A stretch of 64,000 nucleotides of DNA, from assembly GCA_000165345.1 (NCBI GenBank), contig CM000433.1:832001-896000 (forward strand), given 5' to 3'. Both the position numbers and the translations under genes were made by a program. Each line of letters begins with the position of its first letter. Positions within the stretch are counted from its first letter, which is position 1. Positions 28,559 through 58,700 of the stretch are shown here, piece by piece. The notes beneath the pieces were generated by a model that was not told where the DNA came from, made no database searches, and worked only from the letters and a program-made list of their open reading frames with translations.

Positions 28559-28930
28559 TTTTCTTCATTTAACTCGATAATTTTTAAGAGTTTTCAAATA
28601 ATTTTATATTATTCAGGCTAATAGAATATTGCAGAAAAAACCAAAATTTTTAAGTTTTTATTTTTAATATTACTTTTAGACTTGGGGATGATCAATTTAC
28701 TGTGTGTTGGTAGTTATTTATCCACTTTCCAAGATCTAAAAGTTTCAAGAAAGAAGGACTTGAACTATTACTTTACCACTAAAAGATCTATCTTCTACCT
28801 TTATTAATCTCTATTCTTTATAAATTTTTATTTACTTTATTCCCACACAAGTATTTTTATTCCCTAGTTTAATTATTTTTATTTATCATAATTATACTGT
28901 TAATATTTCAAAGAGTTGGCGCCAACCCTC

Positions 28931-32374: not shown

Positions 32375-32802
32375 TCTATTTTAATACTACCTATGTTTTT
32401 TATATTATAATATAATATCTTTTTTTCAATTCAAATCACAAAGAAAAAACTTAGTTTAGCTAATTTATTAATTATACTCAAATTTCCCACATTCTGAGAG
32501 GCAAGACAGAACTTATGCATTTATTTATGAAACTTAGAGCAAAAAGCACGAAAACTTGGGAAAAAAGAACAATATTAGCAAACTGAGTATAGAGACTGAG
32601 CCAAAGAGATATAGAGAACTTTAGTAGTAAAGAACAAGGGGGGGGGGAAACGGAACTACTCCCACTTTAAATATGAAATGGAGGATTAAAATTCTCAGTA
32701 ATCTCTATTCATATGTAAAGAGTAAAAGAAAAAAGTAGTAGTAGTGGCAGTAAAATAGAAAAAAAATGACTCGACTTATCCGAAAATTACATTTGTAACT
32801 AT

Positions 32803-42234: not shown

Positions 42235-43278
42235 TTAAAACCATATTATATTATTTAGCTTTCTTAAAAGACTTGGCATTTCATCCATAAAATTAAGATC
42301 ATCCCAGTTGATTATTTCATCAAGATTAAATAATCCACTTCCAAAAAAGTCATCACTTTCTTCAGTATCTTGTTCATCATCAGGATCACCAAGATTTCTA
42401 CTTCCTAGAACAGCAGAAATAAGTCTTTTAGCTTCTTCAACATTACCATTCTTATTGTAAAGTCCCATACTTAGATTAATTAATCTGACTAAGGGTACCG
42501 TTGAATTTTGTTCAGTAAATTCAATAATATAATAATCTCCATTGGATGTAATCCATTCAGGATCTTGTATTACATTAAAAATCTGAGTAAAATCTTCTTT
42601 ATTTTGAGCCATATCATTTGTTACACTTTCTTGATTAATTTGATTACTATTTGTATCATTATTAATAGATTTTGATAATCCTTGTTCATTTTTATTTTGA
42701 ACACGACGAACATTATGAGTTTCTGTTATTACTTGAGTAGTACTATTATTACCATTAGTTGTGGTTGTTGTAATAGTAGTAGAATTTGTAACAGTGAATG
42801 TAGTTGAAGTTGTTGTAGTTTTTGAAGTAACTGATGACACAGTTTTAGTACTTTTTGGTGACTTTTTTGGTGCTTTAGGAGGACTTTTTCCTGCAGAAAA
42901 AATCACAATAGAACTTTCATCATTTGTTTGGTTATTATGGTTTACAATACCTTCATTAGCAATACCATTTTCTGAGATAATTGTAAAATTTTGTAAATCA
43001 GAATTATCTTCTAAACCACTATTAATAATTTTCTTAGAGCCATTTTCATCTATCAATAATTTTCTCAAAATTAAATTTGAGCTTTTTGAAAATTCAGAAT
43101 TTTCTGTATTGTTTTTAGGTTGATTTCTTGATAACTTTCTACGTGTTATTTTTAATGAATAAGTGTTATTATTGTTTTTAAAGTTTAAAGTATTTTTTGA
43201 AGTTACAAAACTTAAATTAAGAATATTCAAGACAATGCAAAATACCAAAACCTTGCCAATCAATTTAGTCCTATTCAT
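42235..43278 (-). CDS. Secreted mucin-like Thr/Ser-rich glycoprotein (signal peptide plus TTTSTTFTVTNSTTITTTTT tract)
   Basis: N-terminal MNRTKLIGKVLVFCIVLNILNLSFVTS is signal-like. A long Thr run and many NxS/T sequons follow. No conserved domain. Confidence 0.6.
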   Translation of the reverse strand: MNRTKLIGKVLVFCIVLNILNLSFVTSKNTLNFKNNNNTYSLKITRRKLSRNQPKNNTENSEFSKSSNLILRKLLIDENGSKKIINSGLEDNSDLQNFTIISENGIANEGIVNHNNQTNDESSIVIFSAGKSPPKAPKKSPKSTKTVSSVTSKTTTTSTTFTVTNSTTITTTTTNGNNSTTQVITETHNVRRVQNKNEQGLSKSINNDTNSNQINQESVTNDMAQNKEDFTQIFNVIQDPEWITSNGDYYIIEFTEQNSTVPLVRLINLSMGLYNKNGNVEEAKRLISAVLGSRNLGDPDDEQDTEESDDFFGSGLFNLDEIINWDDLNFMDEMPSLLRKLNNIIWF

Positions 43279-43877
43279 AACTTAATATATTCTTTCAGAA
43301 AAAAAAAAAGAACAGATTTCTTGGTTTCCTTACTTTATAATCTACAATTCAAACTACAATCTAACAATTTTTCAAATTTATTACCTAATAGTTAAATATT
43401 ATACTATTACTATAAAAAATGATATATATTTAAAATTCTTTAATGGTACCAATCGTTTTCGAGGAGTTGAATTTGAAGAACATGATAAATATTATTTTTT
43501 CAATGTTGATTTTTTTTTTTCTCAAAGAAGAAAAACTATTCTCTTTTAGATGAAGAAAATTCGGACTTAATAAATTTTTTAAAAAAATTTGGTTATTAAT
43601 TTTAATTCTAATATAAATGTATTTTTATGACGTGTAAATTTTTAATGCATGCACTGGCAGATTAAATTTAAAAAAAAAATGCATTTTAGCATGCAAAAAA
43701 AAAAAAATTCACATTTATATTGGGAAATTTTGATCAAAAATTTAAATTAATATTAACTTATTTATTTATTTATTTATTATAAAAAATACTTGGAAATTTT
43801 TTATTTCAACAAGAAAATAAAATATTCAAATTATTACTCAAATATTAATTAATTAAACTACGTGTAATTCCCGCCCA

Positions 43878-43897
43878 AATTTGTCCCTCACCCCACT
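43878..43897. promoter_or_regulatory. C-rich element AAATTTGTCCCTCACCCCAC (copy 1 of a motif shared with 52308-52337), next to an E2F-like TTCCCGCCCAAA
   Basis: Read directly. It is highly C-rich in an AT-rich intergenic region, and a near-identical element lies upstream of the AP-1 gamma gene. Confidence 0.4.
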
Positions 43898-44712
43898 TGT
43901 TAAAATTGATTATTATTATAAGTAAATAAACAGCAATATAAATAATTAAAGAGGAGTGATTTGTTAAGACTCATTAAGTTTTTGAGATTATTGACAGGGA
44001 ATATTTGTAATGGTTAATGAGGACCTGTATATTTTGGATGAGAGTAATTAAATTTAAATAATATTAAATATTAAAAGTATAATTCAAATAAATTAAAGTG
44101 ATTTTTTAAAGAAATTAATAAGAAAAAAAAAGTTCAAGAAAATAAATATTAATTTTGATAATAATAAAAAAACATTAATAATACAAGGATTTAATTAATT
44201 CATTATTAAATAATTAAATAAAGTTTATAGAATATATATATAAATATATAAATTGTAAACGTAAAAAAAAAAAAAAAAAAAAAAACAGAAAATTGTTAAA
44301 TGAGCAAATTAAACATAAATTGCACACAAAAATAAATTCAAGAGAAAAAAAGTGTTCAAAATTGAGTGATTAAAAATTTTAAATATAAAGATTAATATCA
44401 TTAATACTCGGATGAAAGTAGGTATATAATACATTAATATGTAATTATAATCCCAACGAGAAATAATAATATATTTAAATTTATACAATTTGCAAAAGTA
44501 TGCAGTGATACAAATTTGTGCATTGGAAATTAGGAATAATAATATATTTTCATTTTTTACGGATGAAAATAAGAGTAATTAAATTAATATTATTTAGCAA
44601 TATATGAATGGTTAATTAGATATATTACAAAAACAAAAAAAAAAAAGAAATATACAGGAATTATAAGTAGCAGCAGAAGTGTGGTATATTAAATAAGTAA
44701 ACCAAAGAAAAA

Positions 44713-46044
44713 ATGCCAAGAGAAGTCAGCATATACAAAAGTCCTATAAAGACTTTGAATCTTGCATTGCTATTTTGCTATGAAGTAGTATGTAAAATAA
44801 TTGTGGAATTGTTTACAAAATGGTATAAACACATTTTGATATTATTTGGAATTACTTTGACAATAATGGGATTAAGTAATTTAAATGAAAAATTAGGAGA
44901 GCTAATTCATAATTACATTTACGTTAATATTTTGAATGGAATTTGGTGGATTGGATTGGGGTTTTTGAGTTCAGTAGGACTTGGTTGCGGCATTCATACT
45001 GGATTATTGTTTTTATTTCCTCATGTTTATTCAATAATTACTACAGCTGAAAGATATAACACATTGAATTTTGACCCAAGGCAAAATATGTGGAGTAATT
45101 TATTGAACCCAGGAGATTTATTTATAGTAAATGATTTAGGTTCAGATGGATCATCAATCAGTCTATTTAACATATTATTAAAGATTCTCCCATATGCATT
45201 TTTATGGGGTTTTGGTACGGCTTTAGGAGAGTTACCCCCATATGCAGCAGCATATGCAGCTTCAAAATCTAGAAAAAATAATAGATTAAGAGAGTTAAAA
45301 AGGAGAAAAGAAAATGAAGAATTTGAAGTACAAAACTCTTCAAGTATTGAAAATATTGGGAATGAAGGTTTTGAAATTAATAAGGAGTTACTTCCTGATG
45401 ATGAAAGTACTGAAGATACAAATAATGACTCAAGTATTAAACATTACTTGATGAGTTTAATAAAGAAGTGTATAGTCACATTGATTAATAAGTTTGGTGG
45501 ATATGGAGTCTTTATTTTAAGTTGTTGGCCAAATTTAATGTTTGATTTATGTGGAATCATATGTGGCCATTATTTAATGAATTTTTGGACTTTCTTTATT
45601 CCACTAGTTCTTGGTAAAGGTATAATAAAGGTTTTCTTTCAGACTTTATTATTAATATTCTTATTTTCAAGTAAATTTGAAAATAAGCATGTTGATATTA
45701 TTCTTTGGTTTATTAAAAAATGGCCAATTTCTAAATTTTTTGATAAAGATGAAATTTACCTTAAAGAAACAATTCATAACGAGTTAATTTATATAAAAAA
45801 GACTTTAAGTAATATGAATGAGCAATCTGGAGATCCTATTTCATCATTGAATTCCAATAATATTAGTAAAATAAATAATAACAATTGGTGGGAAGTCATT
45901 ATAAGTAAAATCCAAATTACTTCCTTATTTTCATGGATTACTATTTTTGTTGTTGTTTTATTTGCAATCTCTATCATTAATGAGGCAGCAAAATATCAAG
46001 ATGAAGCCATCAGAAATAAGGAGAACAAAGTTAAAAAGGACTAA
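44713..46044 (+). CDS. VMP1: Vacuole membrane protein 1 (VMP1/EPG-3; DedA/TVP38 superfamily ER scramblase involved in autophagy)
   Basis: W-I-G-L-G-F-L-S-S-V-G-L-G-C-G-I-H-T-G-L-L-F-L-F-P-H..., F-G-T-A-L-G-E-L-P-P-Y-A-A-A-Y-A-A and N-L-M-F-D-L-C-G-I-I-C-G-H-Y-L-M-N-F-W-T-F-F match human VMP1 ([66 protein letters not shown]), recalled. Confidence 0.85.
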   Translation: MPREVSIYKSPIKTLNLALLFCYEVVCKIIVELFTKWYKHILILFGITLTIMGLSNLNEKLGELIHNYIYVNILNGIWWIGLGFLSSVGLGCGIHTGLLFLFPHVYSIITTAERYNTLNFDPRQNMWSNLLNPGDLFIVNDLGSDGSSISLFNILLKILPYAFLWGFGTALGELPPYAAAYAASKSRKNNRLRELKRRKENEEFEVQNSSSIENIGNEGFEINKELLPDDESTEDTNNDSSIKHYLMSLIKKCIVTLINKFGGYGVFILSCWPNLMFDLCGIICGHYLMNFWTFFIPLVLGKGIIKVFFQTLLLIFLFSSKFENKHVDIILWFIKKWPISKFFDKDEIYLKETIHNELIYIKKTLSNMNEQSGDPISSLNSNNISKINNNNWWEVIISKIQITSLFSWITIFVVVLFAISIINEAAKYQDEAIRNKENKVKKD

Positions 46045-48461
46045 AATTTATGGATAACTTTTCATTTTGGATTATTTAGTTTCATTTCTTTTACAATTAT
46101 TGATCTCAGATTATGCGATTGTTCATAATTGATTATAACGCACAAAATTAGGCTCAAAAACTGAGGTTATTAAATATATTTTCTATTTTTAGTATCAATT
46201 CAGATTTTAATTTTAATTATTTAAAAGAGATCACTATTTTTTTAGAAGAGTATACTTGGAAATACATTATATTTCACTTATATACTATTTTTCAAAAGGG
46301 GGAATGTAATAAATTTAATAGTTTGCTTCTCCTTGGAATTACTTTATATTTAACTAATCACTACTTTTTTTTTTGATTTTCAAATTATAATGGGATAATA
46401 TTCATCAAATTCTTTTTTCCTTCGAAGTATTTTCATAAGCCATATTTTACATTATACACAGGGTTTGACAAGGCACTTTGTTTCGAGATTAACCTTGTAT
46501 TATAGTTAAAGAAATTATCTAAAAAAAGAAATTTGAATTCATCCTAGTCACTTTTATATATAAATAGAAGAATTATTCAATCTAATTAAAATGTTTAAAT
46601 TATTTTACGTATTATGCAATTTCCGCCCCACATAATTCTTATCAATTTCTATGATTTTTTTTTTTAAAGTTTACCATTATTCTTTAAAAGGAATATGGCG
46701 CCTAAAATAGCAGGCGGGCCCTGCATTTGACTTAAAGAGCGAAGACAGATATTTCCAGTAATTAGTGGGAATAATAATTAAAAACGTGGTAGTTTTAGAA
46801 GAGAAAATCGAGTATTTTCTTTTTATAGATCGAGTGTTGCATTATATATGTACATATATATATTATATTAAGAGAGAGAGACTATTTTATTAGGTTTCTT
46901 ATTGACTGGAATAAAAATAGAGCTAGATAATTACTACTGGACTGCGTACTTTTATTTTTTATACTATTTTTAAAGTATTTAGCAGAGTAAATTGAATTTT
47001 GTTGCAGATTTAAAGGGTGGAAAATCATTAATATTAAAAGCTATTAAGAACAAGTTTGAGGGATTTGTTTTTTTATTGAAAATAATAAATTATATTTGGA
47101 TATATATATATTTCTTCAGAATAGAATAATTTAACCACTTGTTAGTATATAAAGAAAAGAATAACTTGAAGTGAATTTTGTTATTTTTTTCTTATATAGT
47201 TGTATTTGGCTGGTTTTTTCCTGTATTTTCTTAAAAAGTCTACATTTTTGGAAAAGTTGAGACCAAATTGTTCAAATACTTTAAGAGTTTGTATTAGAAC
47301 AGATATATCGAATATAAATATTTTAAACAATGGCAAAATCTTACTCAACTAAATCTAAAGGAAGAGGTTCGTTGAAATTTGAAATACTCATCTTACGTTT
47401 GTTTCCTTCTTTTTTAAGAAATTCTTGTAATTGCAGTTAATTGGTTGGCTACATTATAGATTTTTTTTTTGTTTCTGGAATATATTAGAGATATTTCAAC
47501 GGAAAGAATTCGATTGACTTTTGGTGGCTTTTGTTTTCATCCTCTTTCTTTGCATTTTATTTTTCTTTTGAACTTATCCAATGAAATGTGATATTTCAAA
47601 TATTTTACCCTCTATTATTTTGGTCTCTTTCTCACTCTAGCTCAATATGGGAGATATCATTAATAAAGTGTAAAGTATTCTGGAATCATTGGAACGCTTG
47701 GGTGGTTGAATTAGAAGTTTGGGATTTGCAGGAAATTGTTAATGAAATCATTGACTTGCCGTATAAATTATGGGATGCGTTTATTCAGACAACCAAGTGG
47801 GATATATAAAATTAATAAAATAAACGTGATTATTTACTATCCTCACATTTTCTATACTCTAATTCATGTTATTGTTGATCTTTTGTATTTTAAATAAGAT
47901 CATTTACAGCTATCAGCAGAGAGTCATCTTTCTTTCCACTAACGCATTTTTCTCTTTCAATTCTACTATGAAGTGGAAAAAAAATGCTATTTAAAATTGG
48001 AATTCATAGTTTTTGGTAGGGCATATTGAATATATTTAATCCATTCAAATCAAAAAGAAAAAAAATTGGCATTTTTAAGCTATACATGCATTGGCGATAT
48101 GATAGTTTTTCTATTACGTCATTCATGTATTTTGAATACCGGTATTTGTGTGCAAAGTTGTGGGGATTTGGCACGATTTTTTTTTTTTTTCATTTGGTTT
48201 AATTTTGGGTATTATATTTTAATATTTTTCATTCTTTTAGGCTTGAATGAAATTATATTACGAATTATGGATTAAAGTAATTTAATACTACTCTTTAATT
48301 GGGGATATTAATGGAAATGATTTAAGTCAATTCAATCGTATTTCTTATTCCTATTTGCGAACAATTCCACAGTTATGTATACTATTAATGTAGTTTAATG
48401 GAGCCATACTAAATTAATATTTATTGCAATTCTAGAAAAAAAGAAGAAAGCAAAACGTGCA

Positions 48462-49332
48462 ATGTGTATATATACAAGTATCATTAACTGACTTTTTTTT
48501 TTTTTTTTGAACATTATAGGTCAATCTCGCACTAATTCAAACTCTACAAGACGTATTGTCAGACTTGGTAACACAAATTTATCAAATTCGAGAAATACTT
48601 TGAACTCCGCAAATGGTAGCTCAAAGTCTAGAGTGATTAGAGGCCAAGGCGGTAGGAGAGTCAATACCAGCTTTGATAATCTCAATAGAAGGAAATTAGC
48701 ATCTTCCAGAAACTCCACTAATAGAGGCTCTTCACTTTCTAACAATGCAAGAAACAGAAAGGGAAGCATTGGGCGCTTTAATTCTTCTGGAAATTCAGGT
48801 GCCATTAGAAGAGGAGGTAGTGGTAGTGGAGGTAGGGGAAGAGGATTTAGAGGTAGGAACAGTGGTTCTAGAACATCATCTAGAGGAAGAGGAGGCGCAT
48901 CTGGAGGATTTAGAGGAACTAGACGCCCCCAGAAGAATAAAAACAGTACAAGCACAGCGTCATTGGTAAGTTATTTTTTTCTTTGAAGAAGTTCTATGGA
49001 ATTCCACATCCATTTTTTTTTTAATGGACTGGTTATAGCGCATGGCGCCAAATGTGGGATTACGGAATACAATTTCTCAACTATATTAACTTTTCACAAT
49101 TTCTTCCCCCTTCAAAAAAAAAAAAACTATATATATTATTTTTGATTTTTTTTCTAATAAACAGGATGCAGCATTAGACTCGTATATGGGAGCAGATGTT
49201 TGCAAGGCACGATTAGATTCACAATTAGATTCATACTTTTCTGGACAAAGTACTGGAAATGATAGCATGGTAACCGGCGACTCTTCGATGAATGTGGAGA
49301 GTAATCAGGAGCCAGTTTTGATCTCACTATAG
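48462..49332 (+). CDS. RGG/RG-rich protein with C-terminal FoP-duplication / UAP56-binding-type motifs (CHTOP / Friend-of-PRMT1 / ALY-REF-like, no RRM), three exons: 48462-48465 (ATGT), 48520-48965, 49165-49332
   Basis: Exon 2 lacks an ATG and is preceded by a poly-T tract plus TATAG acceptor. The proposed micro-exon 1 is ATG+T followed by a GTATAT donor, a 54-nt intron and a CTGAC branch-like site. Exon 2 ends at a GTAAGT donor (48966) and exon 3 follows an AACAG acceptor (49163-64). The product is rich in RGG/RGR/SRGRGG and ends with two L-D-S-Y-M / L-D-S-Y-F motifs resembling the E-L-D-A-Y-M motif of ALYREF and CHTOP C-termini. The exon 1 assignment is uncertain. Confidence 0.6.
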
Positions 49333-49446
49333 AAGAATATTAGTAAAAAGCTTTTGATAATTAATTCAACGGCAAGATACTTTGAAAAAAAAAATTGCAA
49401 CGCATGTATAGGTGGATAAATAGTAATAATACATATTAATAAAACT

Positions 49447-50717
49447 CTATTCTTGATTAATTGGTATTTCCTCTGAGAAAAGTGCACTATTATGATCATC
49501 AATGTTGTTAGAATCATTGAAATCATTAGGTTCTTGTTCATAATCAGAGGTCTCTAACTGATGATCGGAATTATTGTCCATATGGTTTGTGTAAATGTCA
49601 CTAATCTTTCTATCTAGTTGGTTGTTATTATCATTGTTATTGTTGTTATAGAGCTTTACATCTTCATCTCCATAAATACAATCATTTTGGATATATAATT
49701 CGTTATCAATTTCACATTCTTTTTGTCTTGTTTCAATGTCTGTTTCCGATTTATATTGGTCCTCGATTTGATCTTGTTCTTTTTGATTTTGTTCTTCTTG
49801 ATCCTGCTCTTGCTCTTGATTAAGAACAGGATTTTGATTTTGGTGTTGATAATCACTTTCTAAATTTTTATCGTGATTTTTACTTTGTTCAATTTCGTCA
49901 ATAGTTTCAGTATTTACTTCTAACTCATTTGAATGAATCTCAATATGACGTTCATTTGGTTCAATCTTGGATTTTAATTCGTCCATATTAGTATCATCAA
50001 TGGTACTCAAAGTATTATTATTTGGATAAATTATATCGCTTTTATAAAAATCTGGAACATTTTCTTCTGAAATTTCATTTTCATTAATTTCCTTATATTT
50101 TTTAACTGGAAATGAAGAATTTGAGAGTAAAGAATTGCCATTCTCAGTTGATATAATAACCTAATAAAATTAATTATTTAAATTTCAATAGTAATTTAAT
50201 GGGATCTATTTAAAAAAAAAAAAAAAAAACTTACATCTTTGATAATAATATTTCTTATAGCGTTAAAATAACTTTGCCAAAATATACTCTCGGACATTCT
50301 ACTTGGTACTAATTCATATCTAATATTATTTAATTCATCCATTTGTGAAAGTAATGCTGCTGCCCATTCTGCAAAAGGAATAATACAATCTGGATCATCT
50401 TCGTCTAGAGAAAATCCTTGTATTCTTGATACCGGACAATTTGTTAAAAATACTTGCTTATTCAATGTTAAGCTTTGAACCTTTTCTTTAATACTTTTAT
50501 AGTTCCATTTCAAAACAGTATTTGTAGGTAGTTCTTCGCTCGACCATTGAACAATATGAAACCATGGAAAAACATTATCTTGCATTGTTTCTGATTAATT
50601 AAATTAATATTGGTTATTAAAACTTTTAAAATTATTCATTCAAAACTCACCATCAAAATCCTTCATTTCTAACTCCATTTCTTGGGTTAAATCTTCCACA
50701 CTTTCAACAATTCCCAT
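49447..50717 (-). CDS. BSD-domain-containing protein with a long acidic Asn/Asp/Glu/Gln-rich tail, three exons: 50717-50651, 50590-50235, 50160-49447
   Basis: On the minus strand, ATG at 50717, a GTGAGT donor (50650-45) and an ATCAG acceptor (50592-91) join phase 1 to the ORF 50196-50585 (S-E-S-I-F-W-Q-S-Y-F is the BSD F-W signature). A GTAAGT donor (50234-29) and a TTATTAG acceptor (50162-61) then join phase 0 to the ORF that continues as 49447-50010. The N-terminus MGIVES fits an N-myristoylation consensus. Confidence 0.65.
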
Positions 50718-52307
50718 CTTTTTATACTTGCTAGATTAATATTAAGTTATTTTATTTTCCTTCTGAGTGATTCTGATCCTATTTACTTTAAAATATTAAT
50801 TGATCATAATAAGCATTCAAAAACTCTTAATATTTCTACCTTTCTATTATTAATAAATTACTTATTATGACTTTAAGCCTAGCAAATAATTTGTGTTGTA
50901 TTTTGTTTCAATTTATAATTAGAATTTATATTACCGATATTTCCTCTTCAAACACTTTCTATTGAAAACTATTAGAAAATATCCAATCAATAGATTCTAA
51001 AGGAAAACTTTCAATATTTTCTGTTTACTCAAATCCCATATAAATCTATCGATTTTTTTTTCTACTTTAATTAATTTTTTTCATTAAATATTATACAAAT
51101 TAAAATACACAATTTTTACCGCCATTTTTAATTATTTATTTTCCTTTATAACCACAAAATTTCATTAATGTCAAACATATGATCTTTTTTTTTTTTTAAT
51201 ATTTCATAAAAATTTTCATTTTTTAAATACAAAACCGATATAAAAACTCTATTGGTTTAAATTTTATAATTAATTACCTTCCAAAGTAAATTTTTTTTTC
51301 TAATTAATTAATGCAATAAGTGTTTTCTACTTTTATTTACATGTAATTTAATTAATAAACAAAAATATTGAATGTTCCCGCCTTTTTTCTTTTAAAATAA
51401 TAAATAAATATAAAGTAATTTATTTATGAATGTTAAATACATTGTGCGTTGAAGGGTTATATTATTAATAATAATATATTAAAAATTGAAATTAAACGAG
51501 GATAATAAAAAAGTTATTTATAAGAAAACATCATTATTGGATTATATAATAATTAAATTTTTAATAAAATGATTGATCCAGGTATGTATAAAAAGTATTC
51601 CTAAAATTTATATTCAAGGGAAATATATTTTTATTAAGAAAAAATGACTTTCTTTAAATAACATTTGCACTATTATCTCATATTCAGTATATACAATTTC
51701 GGTTTTCCTTATTTTATGCTTTTGTTCGCTATTTATTTACATAATATATGTAAACAATTTACTAAAAGAAAGAGATTCATCTAAAAGACAAAAAAGAAGA
51801 GTAAGTTAACAAATAATGTATACTTTATATGAATTTAAAATTTACATTGTATTAACCAATTTTTTAAATATAGAAACCAAGAAGAAAAGACAGAGAGTAT
51901 TGGAGTATAGATGAGTAAATAATTTAAATTACAAACATTTACTTTTTTTTTTATCGTTTCAAGATTTTGTCTATGAATCTATTAGATAATTCGCAAGACA
52001 TTTTTCAACTACTTGATTAAATAATAATAAACAATTTATTTAGGTAAAACTAATTAATATTTCATTCTAAAAAAGAGTATGTATCGAGTTTGGAGGAAAA
52101 AATAACTAGAATTTTTTTCATTAATTATTTCGTGTTTAGAATTTCAATGTATTAAACAACATAAATGTCCAGTTTCCATAAATACTGCCTATAATAGTAT
52201 ATTACTACATATTAATCTATTCACAGCTACCAAATCAACAAATATATATAAATTTATTAATAAAAAATTTCTATATAATTTTAATTTACTTCTAAAAATA
52301 GAACCCA

Positions 52308-52337
52308 CAAATTGCCCCTCACCCCCACCCCATCGCC
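52308..52337. promoter_or_regulatory. C-rich element CAAATTGCCCCTCACCCCCACCCCATCGCC (copy 2 of the motif shared with 43878-43897), about 350 nt upstream of the AP-1 gamma start
   Basis: Read directly. It is followed at 52376-52388 by a GC-rich CGCTTGCGCGCCCGG. Confidence 0.4.
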
Positions 52338-52685
52338 TATGCAACAACTTTGGAAAAAAAAACGTCTCAAGATCACGCTTGCGCGCCCGGTACCGAATTA
52401 TTATTATTTTTTAATAAATTAAGTGTGAGGAAAAAAAAAATAATTCAAGATAAAAATGGAGGGAAGATTTTTAAAGAAAAAAAATTAATTAGTATTAATT
52501 ATTTTGAAATAATTTCTCCATTTAATTTTATGAATATTATCTACTTTTGTAACATCATTGAAGATTAATTGATTACTAGATTCAATTTTGAATCCAAATA
52601 ATTGACATTACTTCAGAATAGGATTAAAAAGTCCCAAAAATTCTTTTTTTTTATAGAAATTTTAAAATATTAAAAAGAAAAAAAG

Positions 52686-55574
52686 ATGTCAATAAAGCTA
52701 CGCGAACTAATTAGACAAGTTAGAAACTGCAAAACGGCAGCAGAAGAAAGGTCTATAATTTCAAAAGAATGTGCCCATATCAGAGCACTTTTTAAAGAAG
52801 ATGAAAATCAATATAGACAAAGAAATATTGCAAAATTATTATTTATTCATATGCTTGGATATCCAAGTCAATTTGGACAAGTTGAATGCTTAAAACTAAT
52901 TGCTAGCAATAAATTTTGTGAAAAAAGAATTGGATATCTTGCGATTTGTCAATTATTAGATGAAGATTCTGAAATTTTATTGCTTGCAACCAATAGTATC
53001 AAGAATGATCTGAATCACTCAAACCAATATATTAATGGACTTGCACTCTCTGCTATAGCTAACACAGCTCCTAAAGAGATGTGTAGAGCAGTTTTTAGAG
53101 AAGTTAGTGAACTTTTACTAGTTGGGAACCCATTCATCAAGAAAAGAGCATTACTTGCATCAGTACATATTATTCGAGTTCTTGAAGATGCAGAAATTGA
53201 GTCATTTATTAACTGTATTCCTTCTTTACTTGAAGATAAGCATCATGGAGTTCTTTTAGGTACTTGTCATATGATTAATTCAATAATACAATATCATCCT
53301 GAACATATTGAAGCTTTAGGACCTTTTGTACCTTTATTAGTAAAAATATTAAACACAATAAGTATGGCAGGATATCTTAATTCTATGGAATATGATAATG
53401 GAGGAGTCACAGACCAATTTCTACAAGTACATATACTAATTACAATTGGTGATCTCAGAACTGTTATTGCAGATGATATTAAAGAGAATATTTGTGCCGT
53501 ATTAGCTCAATTATTGACTAATACTGATCATTCCAAAAATGGCGGGAATTCTATTTTATATGAATCTGTTAGAACCATTATTAAATTATTACCATATATT
53601 AATGAGGATGGATTATATATGTTAGCTGTTAATACGGTAACAAAATTCTTACAAAATACTGATTTAAATATCCGTTTTGTTGCCCTTGGTTTATTAGAAA
53701 ATATGAAAGAATTTCCAAATAACTCCAGTACTTGTTCAATAGTCTCAAATGTTAATGAGAGCTTAACTGGAAATAATGACAACAGTAATAATGAAACTGC
53801 GCATGCAGGTTTGGCGCCACATCATGCATTAATTTTAGACTGTTTGAAAGATTCTGACTCGTCAATTAAACTTAGGGCATTAAAAGTTTTGTTTTCTGTA
53901 ATAAATGAAAACAATATAAAGACTTTTATTAAGGACTTATTGAATGCATTATTGATTTCAACAGAAAATGAAGAAATTGATTTTTCTATAGAATTAGCAA
54001 CAGGAATGTGTATTGCGGTAAGGAAATGTAAGCATTTAACCCCACAGTGGTATATTGATACTTATATTAAACTATTTTGCTTGGCTGGAAATATTATTAA
54101 AGAAGAAGAAAGGGATTACTTTATTTCTTACCTTTCTTCTTTAAGTGATTCAAGCATTCATTCATATACTGTCAAAAAGTTATATTTATCATTATTATCA
54201 AGAAATGACCAAATTTTACTAATTCAAGTTACTTTATGGGCAATTGGCGAATATTCTCAGCATCTATTTACTAATAATAATGGAATTGGCTCTTTTGAAG
54301 AACAAAAATCTTTAGATACCTCAGAAATTGATATCTCTGAAGAATCTGTTATGAGTTTAATTGAAAATATTTTAGTTTGTAATTCAAGGGAAATGTCAAA
54401 TAGTAACTACTCATTATCAATATCAGGAATCAATAATTTATGCATTGATTATTCTCATCCAATAAAAGGAGTTGGAACTTATGGCTCTATTAGCTCTATA
54501 GAAACTACAATCAACTTTGCATTAGTAGCTTTGATCAAAGCTAGTATTCGACTCAAGACCCAAAAAAATAAGATACTACAGCTTATTCAGAGTCAAGCAT
54601 CATCTCCATCAGTTGAAATACAACAAAGAGCTTTAGAATATATACAAATTTTGAATTCTAACTGGGATTCTAACCGAAGTCAAATTCTTAACCCTATTCC
54701 AGTATTTGATCTTTCAAATCTTTACTCTAATGAAACTAGAACAAACAGCTATATTAATCTCAATGCCTATAACTCTCCAAAAAATACTAAGAATGAAAAT
54801 ATAAATAACAAATCTAATGATAATACCCTTGTAACAGATCTTTTAGACCTTGATTCTAATATTAATGAAGTAACAGGTAATACAAGTACTAATAATATTA
54901 ACAATTCTAAAGTTGAATCGACTAATGGAAACATCCTGGACTTATTTGACACTATAGCCAGTAATAATACAAAGACTAATCACATCGATTTTAATGCAAA
55001 TGATTCTATGGCTCCAGTTTCTAAAATTGATCCTGTTTTAACTATCACTCATAATAATTCTGGTAACAGTAATAACAACTTACTTAATTTTAATGATAAT
55101 AAACCTACAATAACTACCAAGAGTTCTCCATTTGAGGATCTTATTGACTTTAATAAGCTTGATTTATCTTCTTCACACTCTTCTTCAATTCAAAATAATA
55201 ATTTAAATTCTATTGAAACTATTAAAATTTATGAAAACAAGGATATTAGAATCACATTTGATATATCCAAAAACAAATTCAACCAAAGAGAAACCAACTT
55301 CACTGCAAAGTATTTCAATATTTCTGATGTAGATATATCAAACTTTAAACTAGAAATTGCTGTTCCAAAATATCTTAATATTCAGCTTGAAACTGCCTCT
55401 AGCAACTACCTTCCTTCTAATAACTTCAATCATCCAGCAAAACAAGAAATTAAAGTTACCAAAAATGGAGATGAAAATAATCAAATACTTATGAAGCTTA
55501 GAATTAACTATCTTATCAACAATAACCAAGTTACCGAATATTCGAATGTAAATAATATTCCCAGCAAATATTAA
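52686..55574 (+). CDS. AP1G: AP-1 adaptor complex gamma-adaptin large subunit, with an Asn/Ser-rich hinge and C-terminal ear
   Basis: The N-terminal [73 protein letters not shown]...K-R-I-G-Y-L-A is nearly collinear with human AP1G1 ([29 protein letters not shown]...[31 protein letters not shown]). Single 962-codon exon. Confidence 0.9.
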   Translation: [962 protein letters not shown]

Positions 55575-55736: not shown

Positions 55737-58700
55737 TTAAAGTGCACTACCTCTAATTTTCTTAATACTTTCTAATATATTTAATGTCATTTGTTTATTA
55801 ATATATCTGTTATTTTTAATACAAGAATATAAAAGGAAGCCGCAATTAAGACACCCATTTTTACAGTTACAGCTATTTATATTATCCCTCATATTAAAAA
55901 TAATATCTTCAATAATTCGAACTTCCTTTCCGTTTGAAGTACATTTCAATTTCATTAGTTCATTAAAATATCCATTACCTCCCTTTTTATTTTCATATAG
56001 CAGAAGAGTGATAGAATTTGTTTGTTTATCTTTTTGATTATAAATTTTAACTAAAAGATAATTTCAGATAAATGTAATTTATTATTTTTTTTCTCAAGAA
56101 AAATTATACTTAATAAACTTACTGTCAGGGCATTCACAAGAAATATCATTAATATTACAAGATATAAACTTTGGAAGCGAATTAATAACATTGTGAATAA
56201 TCCCATGTATAGCTATATTAATTATTTCAACTTCAAATTTATCACTTAATTCTAACTTTATCTGCATTCCCATTGTATTAAATGAGTAAACTAAAGGATT
56301 TTGAATATATTTCTCTTCCATAAAAATCCATTCATTATTAATTATCTCAAATATTGAATAACTATATATATCAAAAGTAACTCTTGCTCCTGTTATATAT
56401 ATATTCATACTAATAATATCGCTTTCCAAACTTTCACTCAATGTATATCTTTCGCCATTTCCTTGCATTACTACTGAAACTTCCCCTGAAGAAACAGTCT
56501 TTTGTTTAAGTCTATGATCACCCTTCTTAATTTCTTGTACTATTCCTATAATTCATTGTAATTTTTTAACAATTTAATCATTAAATCATTATTTAATTTA
56601 TAAATATTATTATTATTAACCTACCTCTTCTGGATGTTAAGTCCACTGATAAAGTCTTATATAACACCCCATTTATTGAATATATTGATTCTGGATATAC
56701 TAAACGAACTGAATTATAAATTGGTAATGTGTCAATAATCACCCTACTATCCTTAACATCGTAAAGTGATACAGTTATATCGCTATCTCTAACATCTATT
56801 TGTTTGTAAATATCTTTTGGATCATTCAAAATCAACTGATCATTATTTTCAAAATATAATGAAAGCAATGATGAAATGCATGCAGGTTCGATTCCCGCTT
56901 CAGATTGATTCTTTATCCTATTCCAATTATAATATAAATCGCATGCAACAAAATCTTGAACTTTTGAATTATCGTAAGTAACAATTAGATTTCTGTAGTA
57001 CAAAAATTTGATAATATCAACCAATATTTCAGAGTTTAAATCCAAAATCTTTGAATCTCTTTTAATATTAATAAATTTATAAGTTTCAACTGTTAAACAT
57101 ATAAGGTGAAGAATTAATAAATAAGGATTCTTTAAATTAATAACACATGAATCAAATTGTTTAGATAATAATTCATCGCCATGATTACTTATATAATTAT
57201 CAATTTCATTATTTTCATTTAATAAAAGCACTTTAATACTTTTTGTTTTATGATCTCTTCCACATCTTCCAAATTGTTGAGTCAATCTATTAATAGACCC
57301 AGGGTATCCAAAAACTATTACACTATCAAAACATTTTACATCAATTCCTAGTTCCAATGCAATAGTACTAATAACAATTTTTACTTTACCGTTAAATATT
57401 AGTGATTCTAATTTTCTTCTTTCAGTTTGAGAAATCCCTCCCCTATAAATTTGAATATCAGAATCAAAGTTGAATTGATGATCATTATGAAGATTTATCT
57501 TCTTTAAAGCCATTAAAAGGTCTCTCTTAATATTTTCAACCAATTTTCTTGAAGGACAAAATAAAATTAATTTACGATTTAAATAGTAGAATTCAATTAA
57601 CATATTAATACATTCTTTATAACTTTTATTTTTTTTTATTTGACTATAATTTTTTGTATTATCTTTAATAATATACTTATTACAATCCCAAATTAATATT
57701 GATGATTCTCCCTTTGAACTTGAATCATTATCAATAAGTGCAATATCGTTAAAATCTTTAAATTCAGAACCAATCAAGTTTTTAAAATGCTCAATAGGGT
57801 TATTTATTGTTGCAGTACATACAATATACTGAGTATATGTTTCAGAATCTATATAATTATTTTTTTGTTTGTAATATAGAATGCCTCTGTGAAGTCTTTT
57901 TAATATATAGCTTGTATTAATTCCAAAATGGCCTGTATAAATATGAGCTTCATCGATAACAAGCAATTTTAGACGATTATAAATCATACAAGATAAAAGT
58001 TCAATATTCCAATGAATAAAATCAATATTAGTTAGAATAATATTACTTTTTAATAATATTTCTCTTCTTTGATTCATATTTGTATCTCCATCAAGTTTAT
58101 TAACCTTTGGCAAAATAGTTGGAGGTTCGGGATGAAAAAAACTTAGAATTTGTGTAATCTTCATAAACTGATCTTCAGATAATGCCTTTGTTGGAAATAT
58201 TAATAAAGCCAAATTTTTTGGGTTTTGAATGGCAAATTGAATGCATGGAAGTAAATAACACATAGACTTTCCACTTGATGTACTGGTTGTAATGATTACA
58301 TTCTTTTTATCTCGCAAAATGGCTTTAATTGCATCACTCTGATGATTATAAAATCTAAATTTGTTAGATGAACTTTTATTAATATAAATGCTCAGCATAT
58401 CAATTATTTTCGGATCAAGAATTGAATATACCTGATCATTTTCATGGCAGTAGTTAGTTTCTCGTCCCTTCTCAAATTTCTGGCTTACTATTCCACCTTT
58501 TAAAATTGTACTTTTTGAAATAGTTTCAATGACTTTATCAGAGTCTACCGTTTGATTTTTTCCATTTGGGATTGACATTAATTGATTTATTCTTCTTATT
58601 CTAATTTCCTCCAGACTATTCTCTTTTACCTCAATATCAACTTTATCCGTGAATTTGTCTTCAATTTGCTCATTTTTCTCACTAATATTCATTAATAATT

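What the first reader, a model, noticed from the sequence alone, without database searches (positions are those of the whole stretch)
43878..52337. A roughly 20-nt C-rich element CAAATTG(T/C)CCCTCACCCC(C)AC shared by two distant promoters
Copy 1 (43878-43897, upstream of VMP1 and the divergent mucin-like gene) and copy 2 (52308-52337, upstream of AP-1 gamma) match at about 18 of 21 positions. They are the two most C-rich intergenic stretches in the window. Both sit beside E2F-like or GC-rich boxes. Both downstream genes (VMP1, AP-1 gamma) act in membrane trafficking, which suggests a co-regulation element. Alternatively, the two copies could be a short conserved non-coding RNA or a polymerase III-type box.
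Basis: seen in the sequence. Interest (0 to 1): 0.5.

Follow-up and report, generated by a model that had tools for sequence, protein, structure and literature searches.

The report
Cryptosporidium G-box promoter motifs beside E2F sites
The two C-rich look-alike sequences are real and evolutionarily conserved, but they are ordinary instances of the known "G-box" promoter motif of Cryptosporidium, each near an E2F site; they are not a special membrane-trafficking switch or a small RNA gene.

Summary
The window is Cryptosporidium parvum-type DNA, chromosome 5 (cgd5_37xx-38xx). Both copies exist: 43876-43896 CAAATTTGTCCCTCACCCCAC and 52308-52328 CAAATTGCCCCTCACCCCCAC, with the C-rich run continuing to 52337. 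They match in 19 of 22 aligned columns with two 1-nt indels. The shared 10-mer CCCTCACCCC occurs nowhere else in the 64 kb.

Read on the other strand, both contain the published Cryptosporidium G-box (G.GGGG, G[T/C]GGGG), which ApiAP2 domains bind in vitro. Each lies near an E2F-like site (TTCCCGCC at 43868; TTGCGCGCC at 52379).

In nine syntenic Cryptosporidium loci a C-rich box sits at the orthologous position:
- strict G-box in 8 of 9 species upstream of VMP1;
- C-rich box in 7 of 9, strict G-box in 5 of 9, upstream of AP-1 gamma.

The exact 10-mer and the AAATTG flank are not conserved between species. What is conserved is a degenerate motif cluster, not a fixed 20-mer.

G-boxes are enriched in this window's non-coding DNA and also precede non-trafficking genes. 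Sec1 and Snf7, two trafficking genes in the window, lack one. Sec1 is also co-expressed with AP-1 gamma.

No Rfam, tRNA, B-box or RNA-structure signal was found.

Verdict: a real cis-regulatory element of a known kind. Low novelty.

The parts
43859..43865 (.). TACGTGT box immediately 5' of the E2F site in the mucin-like/VMP1 intergenic region
   Evidence: (T)TA(C/T)GTGT is retained in window, hominis, chipmunk genotype I, canis, ubiquitum and felis. The 20-mer 43856-43875 is the third most conserved of the intergenic region (0.79 against a mean of 0.49).
43868..43879 (.). E2F-like site TTCCCGCCCAAA (reverse complement TTTGGGCGGGAA; published motif 4 is TTTGGCGGGAAV)
Evidence: An E2F-like core is found at the aligned position in all 9 species: TCCCGCC in six (window, hominis, chipmunk genotype I, canis, ubiquitum, andersoni), TTGCCGCC in ryanae and bovis, TTAGCGCC in felis. 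The motif family is from PMC3734150.
43885..43896 (-). Copy 1 core CCCTCACCCCAC, which is GTGGGGTGAGGG on the minus strand. It holds one strict G-box (GTGGGG, 43891-43896) and one weak one (GAGGGA).
   Evidence: It is the only strict G.GGGG match in the 1.4-kb intergenic region. A strict G-box lies within 70 nt downstream of the conserved E2F site in 8 of 9 species, and in most of them it is the only one in the region.
52304..52309 (-). CCCACA (TGTGGG on the minus strand), a partial G-box (7 of 8 to motif 2, DTGTGGGG) that supplies the 'CAAATT' flank of copy 2
   Evidence: ACCCAC(A) is retained in window, hominis, chipmunk and ubiquitum.
52315..52337 (-). Copy 2 core CCCCTCACCCCCACCCCATCGCC, a homotypic G-box cluster (GAGGGG at 52315-52320, GTGGGG at 52323-52328; GTGAGGGGCA is 9 of 10 to motif 6, KKGRGGGGRR)
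   Evidence: It is the most C-rich 20-mer in the window. A C-rich box lies at the aligned position, 25-50 nt upstream of the ACGTCTC anchor, in 7 of 9 species. It is a strict G-box in 5 of them and is absent in bovis and ryanae.
52362..52376 (.). ACGTCTCAAGATCAC, part of a genus-wide conserved block downstream of copy 2. It matches the published 'Unknown set 1' motifs VYGTCBC and RMGACG (the latter in reverse complement).
   Evidence: The invariant columns GTCTC..GA are present in all 9 species. The anchor lies 281-326 nt from the AP-1 gamma ATG in every species. The sequence is unique in the window.
52379..52395 (.). E2F-like TTGCGCGCC followed by CGGTACCG (TTTCCCGCCAGGTATCG in bovis and ryanae)
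   Evidence: The invariant columns C.CGCC..GTA.CG are present in all 9 species. The 20-mers 52356-52375 and 52384-52403 are among the most conserved of the region (0.92 and 0.85 against a mean of 0.49).
46620..46631 (-). Third instance of the same grammar: TTTCCGCCCCAC (G-box CCCCAC overlapping an E2F-like TTTCCGCC), 65 nt upstream of an E2F pair TGGCGCC...GGCGGGC (46696-46719), upstream of the FoP-domain gene
   Evidence: CCGCCCCACA is conserved in hominis, chipmunk and ubiquitum, and the core CCCCACA also in the Logan species (TTACCCCACAAG). The downstream TGGCGCC...GGCGGG pair is conserved in hominis, chipmunk, canis and the Logan species (not seen in ubiquitum).

Best explanation
Both copies are clusters of the Cryptosporidium 'G-box' cis-regulatory motif (G.GGGG, G[T/C]GGGG, written C-rich on the plus strand). 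Each lies close to an E2F/DP-type site in a polymerase II promoter region of C. parvum-type chromosome 5.

Copy 1 lies in the divergent mucin-like (about cgd5_3810) / VMP1 (about cgd5_3820) intergenic region. Its layout is TACGTGT, 2 nt, E2F (TTCCCGCC), 9 nt, then the G-box pair.

Copy 2 lies about 350 nt upstream of the AP-1 gamma (cgd5_3850) start codon. Its layout is a G-box cluster, about 25 nt, ACGTCTCAAGATCAC, then E2F (TTGCGCGCC).

Likely mechanism: G-box-binding ApiAP2 factors (cgd8_810, cgd2_2990, and cgd1_3520 as a secondary motif) occupy the C/G-rich box. E2F/DP occupies the neighbouring site. Together they set the timing and level of transcription.

The resemblance between the two copies comes from shared motif grammar: repeated CCCC(N)C units, plus a TTTG(G/T)GG edge of a neighbouring E2F or G-box site. 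It does not come from common descent or from a dedicated 20-nt element.

Shown here: motif matches, enrichment in non-coding DNA, and positional conservation across the genus. Inferred: which factors bind, which gene each box serves, and the effect on transcription.
For: Organism and genes:
- The VMP1 ORF is 98% identical to C. hominis VMP1. The exact protein is encoded on GCA_015245375.1 CP044418.1.
- AP-1 gamma is cgd5_3850, Snf7 is cgd5_3790 and the dynactin p25-like gene is cgd5_3750.

Motif matches:
- Strict G.GGGG hexamers lie at 43891, 52315 and 52323.
- The published motifs are DTGTGGGG, KKGRGGGGRR, core G[T/G/A]GGGG. They are over-represented upstream of 839 genes in 54 expression clusters and are bound by cgd8_810 on protein-binding microarrays (PMC3734150). 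cgd2_2990 and cgd1_3520 also bind them (PMC4117751).

Enrichment in this window:
- GNGGGG gives 16 hits in 24.3 kb of non-coding DNA (0.66/kb) against 5 in 39.7 kb of coding DNA (0.13/kb).
- GYGGGG gives 6 non-coding hits against 0.49 expected from base composition.

Conservation:
- In 8 of 9 species a strict G-box lies within 70 nt of the conserved E2F site upstream of VMP1. In most of them no other 70-nt window of that intergenic region holds one.
- In 7 of 9 species a C-rich box lies 25-50 nt upstream of the invariant ACGTCTC anchor before AP-1 gamma.
- The 20-mers 43856-43875 and 43877-43896 score 0.79 and 0.70 identity against an intergenic mean of 0.49.

Same grammar elsewhere: a third G-box + E2F arrangement at 46620-46719 is conserved too.

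Context: E2F motifs dominate ATAC-seq promoter peaks in C. parvum, and more than half of those peaks are annotated as bidirectional promoters (bioRxiv 10.1101/2025.01.17.633476).
Against: - No binding, transcription-start or expression data were available here for these two sites.
- Neither copy matches the full 8-10-nt published consensus. Copy 1 is 7 of 8 to DTGTGGGG and copy 2 is 9 of 10 to KKGRGGGGRR.
- Chipmunk genotype I and the Logan species have C-rich boxes upstream of AP-1 gamma that fail the strict G.GGGG pattern. C. bovis and C. ryanae have none there.
- The sporozoite ATAC-seq study found no AP2 motifs enriched in open chromatin, so G-box function, if any, may be stage-restricted.
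- Copy 1 is 817-837 nt from the VMP1 ATG and about 600 nt from the mucin-like gene's ATG. That is far for this compact genome, so its target gene is uncertain.
Confidence: 0.8

Rival explanations
1. The two copies act as structure-forming DNA rather than as plain protein-binding sites. On the minus strand each has four G3+ tracts and could fold into a G-quadruplex, with an i-motif on the plus strand, which would modulate promoter activity. Copy 1 reads GGGG-TGA-GGG-ACAAATTT-GGG-C-GGG. Copy 2 reads GGGG-T-GGGGG-TGA-GGGG-CAATTTGT-GGG.
For: With loops of up to 9-12 nt, these are the only two four-tract runs in the whole 64 kb (0.16 expected in block shuffles). This reading accounts for the full 25-28-nt resemblance, including the AAATT(T)G 'loop' and the upstream CCC tract. 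ViennaRNA with G-quadruplex terms puts a three-layer quadruplex in the minimum-energy fold of copy 1.
Against: With the canonical loop limit of 7 nt there are no hits. The four-tract arrangement is kept only in C. hominis (both sites) and C. ubiquitum (AP-1 gamma site). It is lost in chipmunk genotype I, canis, felis, ryanae, bovis and the Logan species, although the C-rich box itself persists there. The predictions use RNA parameters, are two-layer or absent for most orthologues, and are not a test of DNA folding.
Confidence: 0.1
2. There is a dedicated, longer composite element, CAAATT(T)G(Y)CCCTCACCCC, recognised as a unit. It defines a small regulon that includes the membrane-trafficking genes VMP1 and AP-1 gamma.
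For: The two copies match in 19 of 22 columns, the 10-mer is unique to them in the window, and both downstream genes act in membrane traffic. AP-1 gamma is co-clustered with beta-adaptin and Sec1.
Against: - The flank and the exact 10-mer are not conserved in orthologous promoters.
- The flank is explained by the edge of a neighbouring E2F site in copy 1 and of a neighbouring G-box in copy 2.
- Sec1 (same cluster 108) and Snf7 have no C-rich box upstream.
- No gene between cgd5_3700 and cgd5_3850 is listed in cluster 108.
- G-boxes precede unrelated genes: the FoP-domain gene, thymidylate kinase, Dcp1 and a DEAD helicase.
Confidence: 0.06
3. The copies belong to small non-coding RNA genes, or are polymerase III-type promoter boxes.
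For: Both lie in unusually long non-coding intervals (1.4 and 2.1 kb). Copy 2 contains ACCCACAA and is followed about 85 nt later by a T-run (52400-52406).
Against: - No Rfam family at gathering score in the window, nor at E<=1 in 43279-52700.
- No tRNA.
- The B-box consensus is at chance level and only inside ORFs.
- 101-nt folds on both strands are no more stable than shuffles (z = +1.48, +1.40, +0.31, -0.34).
- Cross-species conservation is limited to short boxes, not an RNA-length block.
- The extra length of the second interval is explained by an uncalled protein-coding micro-gene.
Confidence: 0.02
4. The resemblance is a chance match of two unrelated C-rich strings.
For: There are only two copies, the pattern was defined after seeing them, and two indels are needed to align them.
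Against: A second exact copy of an 8-C 10-mer in 13.6%-C DNA is expected about 0.002 times. This is my own estimate from the base counts. It is consistent, where none of 100 shuffles reached the observed 3 matches. Both sites are retained as C-rich boxes in most other species while the surrounding DNA is largely unalignable.
Confidence: 0.02

Closest known systems
Cryptosporidium parvum G-box-like upstream motifs (motif 2 DTGTGGGG and motif 6 KKGRGGGGRR; core G[T/G/A]GGGG). Sources: Mullapudi et al. 2007, as cited in the review read; Oberstaller et al. 2013, PMC3734150; Oberstaller et al. 2014, PMC4117751.
   Same: Same organism and same core hexamer (GTGGGG, GAGGGG). The sites lie in upstream non-coding DNA on either strand, are enriched over background, and occur together with other promoter motifs.
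   Different: The two sites are multi-unit clusters (2-4 overlapping or adjacent units), not single hexamers, and neither matches the full published consensus. Their conservation across the genus next to an E2F site was worked out here; I did not find it described in the papers read.
Cryptosporidium E2F/DP binding motifs (motif 3 DTTGSCGCCH, motif 4 TTTGGCGGGAAV)
   Same: TTCCCGCCCAAA at 43868-43879 is motif 4 with one extra G. TTGCGCGCC at 52379 fits the [C/G]GCGC[G/C] core. E2F is the commonest promoter motif and marks open chromatin in sporozoites.
   Different: Only the 'CAAA' edge of copy 1 overlaps one.
Plasmodium falciparum G-box, (A/G)NGGGG(C/A), upstream of heat-shock and ribosomal protein genes. 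The consensus is from my own knowledge of Militello et al. 2004. The papers read confirm the element and its ApiAP2 binder PF13_0235.
   Same: GAGGGGC in copy 2 (reverse complement of GCCCCTC, 52314-52320) fits that consensus. An ApiAP2 factor is the proposed binder in both genera.
   Different: The target gene sets differ: C. parvum ribosomal protein genes use E2F instead. Copy 1 does not fit the Plasmodium consensus.
Promoter G-quadruplex / i-motif elements
   Same: Four G3+ tracts lie on the strand opposite to the VMP1 and AP-1 gamma coding strand, and they are the only such runs in the 64 kb.
   Different: One loop is 7-8 nt in both copies (one search found no run at a loop limit of 7). 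The four-tract arrangement is not conserved beyond the closest relatives. No structural evidence exists.

Membership tests
Cryptosporidium G-box-like cis-element | Contains the core hexamer G[T/G/A]GGGG (G[T/C]GGGG for the microarray-defined ApiAP2 site) on either strand | tested here: met
   GTGGGG at 43891-43896 (minus strand); GAGGGG at 52315-52320 and GTGGGG at 52323-52328 (minus strand).
Cryptosporidium G-box-like cis-element | Full match to the published extended consensus (DTGTGGGG or KKGRGGGGRR) | tested here: not met
   One search lists no motif 2 or motif 6 match at either copy. By eye, the best are AAGTGGGG (7 of 8) for copy 1 and GTGAGGGGCA (9 of 10) for copy 2. Orthologues in ubiquitum, felis, ryanae and bovis do match DTGTGGGG (sequences).
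Cryptosporidium G-box-like cis-element | Located in non-coding DNA upstream of a protein-coding gene | tested here: met
   Copy 1 is 817-837 nt upstream of the VMP1 ATG and about 600 nt upstream of the divergent mucin-like ORF. Copy 2 is 349-382 nt upstream of the AP-1 gamma ATG.
Cryptosporidium G-box-like cis-element | Motif over-represented in upstream or non-coding DNA relative to background | tested here: met
   Within this window only: GNGGGG at 0.66/kb non-coding against 0.13/kb coding; GYGGGG 6 observed against 0.49 expected. The genome-wide statement rests on PMC3734150.
Cryptosporidium G-box-like cis-element | Bound by a G-box-specific ApiAP2 domain (cgd8_810, cgd2_2990, cgd1_3520) | not testable with these tools
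   Only published protein-binding microarray specificities are available. There are no occupancy data for these sites.
Cryptosporidium G-box-like cis-element | Under purifying selection as a functional site (not part of the published definition, but expected of a real site) | tested here: met
   Positional conservation in 8 of 9 species (VMP1 side) and 7 of 9 species (AP-1 gamma side) against backgrounds of 0.00-0.10.
E2F/DP site (neighbouring element) | TTTSSCGC-type core, [C/G]GCGC[G/C] or GGCGGGAA | tested here: met
   TTCCCGCC at 43868 and TTGCGCGCC at 52379. Conserved in all species compared.
G-quadruplex / i-motif forming sequence | Four tracts of at least 3 G (or C) separated by loops of 1-7 nt | tested here: not met
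   No hits with loops of 7 nt or less. Both copies qualify only when the loop limit is raised to 9 nt or more.
G-quadruplex / i-motif forming sequence | Tract arrangement conserved in orthologous promoters | tested here: not met
   Kept only in C. hominis (both sites) and C. ubiquitum (one site); absent in six other species.
Small ncRNA gene / polymerase III element | Match to a known RNA family, tRNA-like A/B boxes, or a thermodynamically unusual or covarying structure | tested here: not met
   Rfam gave none at E<=1. ARAGORN gave none. B box at chance level. Fold z-scores between -0.3 and +1.5.

The most novel reading that the evidence does not exclude
In the C. parvum/C. hominis lineage, two anciently conserved G-box promoter sites have each been extended, together with a neighbouring E2F or G-box unit, into a four-tract C/G-rich run. 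These are the only two such runs in 64 kb. They could fold into a long-loop G-quadruplex or i-motif on the strand opposite to VMP1 and AP-1 gamma. That would add a structural switch on top of ApiAP2/E2F binding and give the two promoters a shared, lineage-specific behaviour. A milder version is a fixed 'E2F within about 10-65 nt of a G-box' promoter grammar, conserved across the genus and seen at three consecutive plus-strand promoters, that marks a distinct promoter class.
Probability: 0.12. Interest if true: 0.4.

Novelty: already known. Interest (0 to 1): 0.15.

Why it matters
The finding adds little new. It shows that a reader working from raw sequence picked out two genuine, selectively maintained transcription-factor-site clusters in an AT-rich parasite genome. 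It also shows that they belong to the G-box/E2F promoter vocabulary already catalogued genome-wide for C. parvum.

The useful by-products are modest:
- Cross-species footprints give base-level candidates for promoter dissection of VMP1 and AP-1 gamma: TACGTGT-E2F-G-box upstream of VMP1, and G-box-ACGTCTCAAGATCAC-E2F-GGTACCG upstream of AP-1 gamma.
- A small conserved gene appears to be missing from several annotations.

If the G-box/E2F spacing grammar or the quadruplex potential proved functional, it would bear on how a genome with few transcription factors achieves differential expression. Nothing here demonstrates that.

Tried and rejected
1. Dictyostelium reading. From the AT-richness and the gene names I first suspected Dictyostelium and its ncRNA upstream element DUSE ([A/T]CCCA[C/T]AA, from my own knowledge). 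Copy 2 contains ACCCACAA. I rejected this when VMP1 proved to be 98% identical to the Cryptosporidium hominis protein. Four DUSE-pattern hits in the window are unremarkable.

2. tRNA or polymerase III element. ARAGORN found nothing. A perfect B-box-like GGTTCGATTCC at 56885 lies inside the DEAD-helicase ORF and is at chance level.

3. Known RNA family. Rfam gave nothing at gathering score for the whole window, nor at E<=1 for 43279-52700. Single-sequence folds gave no signal.

4. Duplicated segment or mobile element. blastn-short between the two 600-nt neighbourhoods found nothing beyond the 10-mer and A/T low-complexity matches.

5. Bacterial-type promoter and terminator scan of 52200-52700. 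At background level, and not applicable to this organism.

6. Motif content of expression cluster 108 and the cluster of VMP1. The supplementary workbook of PMC3734150 is truncated in the held copy, so tables S3 and S4 are not available and cgd5_3820 is not found in the stored part. I can only say that no gene between cgd5_3700 and cgd5_3850 is listed in cluster 108.

7. Genome-wide count of the 10-mer or 18-mer. Not possible, because none of the scannable collections holds Cryptosporidium genomes. Only about 64 kb plus nine syntenic loci were available.

8. Pfam on the 56-aa micro-protein. No significant family.

Full report
**What is in the sequence.** Copy 1 reads CAAATTTGTCCCTCACCCCAC at 43876-43896. 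Copy 2 reads CAAATTGCCCCTCACCCCCAC at 52308-52328 and continues C-rich (CCCCATCGCC) to 52337. With two single-base indels the copies agree in 19 of 22 columns. The exact 10-mer CCCTCACCCC occurs only at these two places in the 64 kb. Allowing one mismatch gives 3 hits against 0.19 expected. The 18-mer with up to 3 mismatches finds only these two against 0 expected, although that pattern was defined after the fact. Copy 2 is the most C-rich 20-mer of the whole window (15/20). Copy 1 is less extreme (10/20) but is the most C-rich 12-mer of its own intergenic region. The resemblance stops at the element: a sensitive pairwise comparison of the two 600-nt neighbourhoods finds nothing else but A/T low complexity. 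This is therefore not a duplicated segment or a repeat family.

**Where we are.** The window is not annotated, but the 443-aa ORF at 44713-46044 is 98% identical to C. hominis VMP1, with a graded series of Cryptosporidium orthologues. The identical protein is encoded on GCA_015245375.1 CP044418.1. The 962-aa ORF at 52686-55574 is AP-1 gamma (Adaptin_N, Alpha_adaptinC2), listed as cgd5_3850. Snf7 is cgd5_3790 and the dynactin p25-like gene is cgd5_3750. By the numbering scheme the mucin-like ORF (42235-43278, minus strand) is about cgd5_3810 and VMP1 about cgd5_3820; those two IDs are inferred. Copy 1 lies in the 1.4-kb divergent interval between the mucin-like ORF and VMP1. Copy 2 lies 349-382 nt upstream of the AP-1 gamma ATG.

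**What the element is.** Read on the minus strand, copy 1 is GTGGGGTGAGGG and copy 2 is GGCGATGGGGTGGGGGTGAGGGG. Both contain the Cryptosporidium G-box. This motif is one of the four most over-represented upstream motifs in C. parvum: core G[T/G/A]GGGG, motif 2 DTGTGGGG, motif 6 KKGRGGGGRR. It is over-represented in 54 expression clusters covering 839 genes, and the ApiAP2 domain cgd8_810 binds it on protein-binding microarrays (PMC3734150). cgd2_2990 binds it as a primary motif and cgd1_3520 as a secondary motif, defined as G[T/C]GGGG (PMC4117751). A 2025 review lists it in the same way (PMC12246861). Strict hexamer matches lie at 43891, 52315 and 52323.

TTCCCGCCCAAA (43868-43879) is the published E2F motif 4 (TTTGGCGGGAA) with one extra G. 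TTGCGCGCC (52379-52387) fits the [C/G]GCGC[G/C] core.

The AAATT(T)G flank made the two copies look like one longer element, but it has a simple explanation. In copy 1 it is the T-rich edge of the E2F site (TTTGGGCGGGAA on the minus strand). In copy 2 it is the edge of another partial G-box (TTTGTGGG on the minus strand).

**Is it more than chance, and is it functional?** Two lines of evidence say yes.

- *Enrichment.* I treated ORFs of at least 120 aa as coding. GNGGGG then occurs 16 times in 24.3 kb of non-coding DNA and 5 times in 39.7 kb of coding DNA, although the non-coding DNA is poorer in G+C. GYGGGG occurs 6 times in non-coding DNA against 0.49 expected from composition.

- *Conservation.* I fetched the syntenic locus from C. 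hominis, chipmunk genotype I, C. canis, C. ubiquitum, C. felis, C. ryanae, C. bovis, C. andersoni and an unnamed species from a Logan assembly. Gene order is the same throughout.
  - Upstream of VMP1, the block (T)TACGTGT - E2F - spacer - CCCC(C)CAC(AC) is one of very few alignable pieces of the intergenic region. The two 20-mers covering it score 0.79 and 0.70 identity against a mean of 0.49.
  - A strict G-box lies within 70 nt downstream of the conserved E2F site in 8 of 9 species. In most species no other 70-nt window of that intergenic region has one.
  - Upstream of AP-1 gamma, a C-rich box lies 25-50 nt before an invariant ACGTCTC anchor in 7 of 9 species. It is a strict G-box in 5 of them and is absent in C. 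bovis and C. ryanae.

Upstream of VMP1, chipmunk genotype I has TCTCCCCCCACCCCAC, C. canis CGCCCCCCTCCACCACAC, C. ubiquitum GTTCCCCCCCCCCACAT and C. felis CACCCCCACAC. C. bovis and C. ryanae have TTGCCCCCACAC 27 and 33 nt downstream of the E2F site. That pattern is typical of a degenerate transcription-factor-site cluster.

**Is it specific to membrane trafficking?** The evidence says no.

- A third conserved G-box at 46620-46631 (TTTCCGCCCCAC), 65 nt upstream of a conserved E2F pair, precedes the FoP-domain gene.
- Further G-boxes lie upstream of thymidylate kinase, Dcp1, a DEAD-box helicase and other ORFs.
- The Sec1-family gene in the window (26558-28558, minus strand; Pfam Sec1, E = 1.6e-112) is cgd5_3700 and shares expression cluster 108 with AP-1 gamma and beta-adaptin. 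It has an E2F palindrome upstream (TTGGCGCCAA at 28916) but no G-box or C-rich box.
- Snf7 has none either.
- In the published cluster table, cgd5_3700 and cgd5_3850 are consecutive entries of cluster 108. No gene between them, VMP1 included, is in that cluster. VMP1's own cluster could not be found because the stored table is truncated.

**RNA-gene and polymerase III alternatives.** There are no tRNAs. There is no Rfam match at gathering score in the window, nor at E<=1 in 43279-52700. B-box matches are at chance level and far away inside ORFs. The 101-nt folds on either strand are no more stable than shuffles (z from -0.34 to +1.48). Conservation is confined to short boxes. These alternatives are not supported.

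**The one less ordinary feature.** If loops of up to 9-12 nt are allowed, the two copies are the only places in the 64 kb with four C3+ (or G3+) tracts (0.16 expected). This is because each G-box pair sits next to another C-rich unit. That gives both a formal potential to form a long-loop G-quadruplex or i-motif, and it accounts for the full 25-28-nt resemblance. However, there are no hits under the canonical 7-nt loop limit. The four-tract arrangement is kept only in C. hominis and, at one site, C. ubiquitum. The only structure prediction used RNA parameters and is inconsistent among orthologues. I keep this as a low-probability rival.

**Mechanism proposed.**
- *Shown:* motif identity, non-coding enrichment, positional conservation, and adjacency to conserved E2F sites.
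- *From the literature:* ApiAP2 domains bind G-boxes in vitro. E2F motifs dominate open promoter chromatin, and many promoters are bidirectional.
- *Inferred:* G-box-binding ApiAP2 factors and E2F/DP co-occupy these modules and set the stage-dependent transcription of the adjacent genes. Copy 2 serves AP-1 gamma. The invariant block 52362-52395 sits at a nearly constant 281-326 nt from the ATG and probably marks the core promoter and the start of the 5' UTR. Copy 1 serves VMP1, the divergent mucin-like gene, or both.

**Comparison and novelty.** The closest known entity is the C. parvum G-box-like motif family itself, and the neighbours belong to the E2F motif family. The hexamer, location, enrichment and conservation criteria are met. 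A full match to the 8-10-nt published consensus is not, and factor binding could not be tested. This is an already-known kind of element in the very organism where it was catalogued genome-wide. The genus-wide footprints are a small new detail. Interest is low.

**Limits.** I could not scan a whole Cryptosporidium genome, and no expression or transcription-start data for these loci were available. Coding and non-coding DNA were separated by ORF length only, and the gene IDs for VMP1 and its neighbours are inferred from numbering.

Noticed in passing
window 51569-51581, 51688-51800, 51874-51918 (+): A conserved three-exon micro-gene (GTATGT and GTAAGT donors, AG acceptors) lies inside the supposedly 2.1-kb 'intergenic' region between the BSD-domain gene and AP-1 gamma. 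It encodes a 56-aa protein, MIDPVYTISVFLILCFCSLFIYIIYVNNLLKERDSSKRQKRRKPRRKDREYWSIDE, with a hydrophobic N-terminal stretch that looks like a membrane anchor and a basic tail. The same exon structure and a near-identical protein are found in C. hominis, chipmunk genotype I, C. canis, C. ubiquitum, C. felis and a Logan-assembly species. It is not among the called genes of any fetched locus and has no Pfam family.
   Followed up: partly
window 52362-52395: A 34-nt block, ACGTCTCAAGATCAC..TTGCGCGCCCGGTACCG, is the most deeply conserved non-coding piece upstream of AP-1 gamma. The invariant columns GTCTC..GA...C.CGCC..GTA.CG are present in all 9 species, including C. bovis and C. ryanae. The block lies at a nearly fixed 281-326 nt from the ATG and is probably the core promoter or transcription-start region.
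   Followed up: partly
window 46606-46719: A third promoter uses the same vocabulary: TACGTAT, then TTTCCGCCCCACAT (E2F overlapping a G-box), then 65 nt later the E2F pair TGGCGCC...GGCGGGC, upstream of the FoP-domain gene. The elements are conserved in several intestinal-clade species.
   Followed up: partly
window 4599, 23389, 52388-52395, 62083: The hexamer GTACCG/CGGTAC occurs 5 times in non-coding DNA against once in coding DNA. Three of the non-coding sites sit directly beside an E2F site or a G-box: GCGGTACTCCCGCC, GCGCGCCCGGTACCG and TGTACCGTTCCCCTCAC. It may be a further promoter motif.
   Followed up: no
window 43451-43462: ATCGTTTTCG(A/G)G, about 175 nt upstream of the mucin-like ORF's ATG, is invariant in all five species aligned. 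It lies within the most conserved 20-mer of that intergenic region (43450-43469, score 0.82). Its function is unknown.
   Followed up: no
window 13799, 17316, 28916 and about 20 other sites: E2F-type sites are very dense in non-coding DNA. TTSSCGC gives 20 non-coding against 4 coding hits, including perfect palindromes TTTGGCGCCAAA and TTGGCGCCAA. GCATGC (the AP2_1 motif) is likewise concentrated in non-coding DNA. This agrees with the published motif catalogue.
   Followed up: partly
window 11326-12115: This is a G+C-rich (0.45), strongly C-skewed coding stretch. It has repeated ACGTGT-containing units at 11326, 11350, 11482, 11596, 11668, 11740 and 11956, and it runs into a 100-N assembly gap at 12016-12115. 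It is probably a collapsed or unresolved tandem repeat in a 661-aa ORF.
   Followed up: no
window 56885-56895: A perfect tRNA B-box-like string, GGTTCGATTCC, lies next to GCATGCA, inside the DEAD-box helicase ORF. ARAGORN finds no tRNA, and the match frequency is at chance level.
   Followed up: yes
window 32638-32647: A run of ten G (C10 on the minus strand) lies in the short interval between the 471-aa ORF (30959-32374, minus strand) and the L7Ae-family gene. It is possibly an extreme G-box cluster.
   Followed up: no
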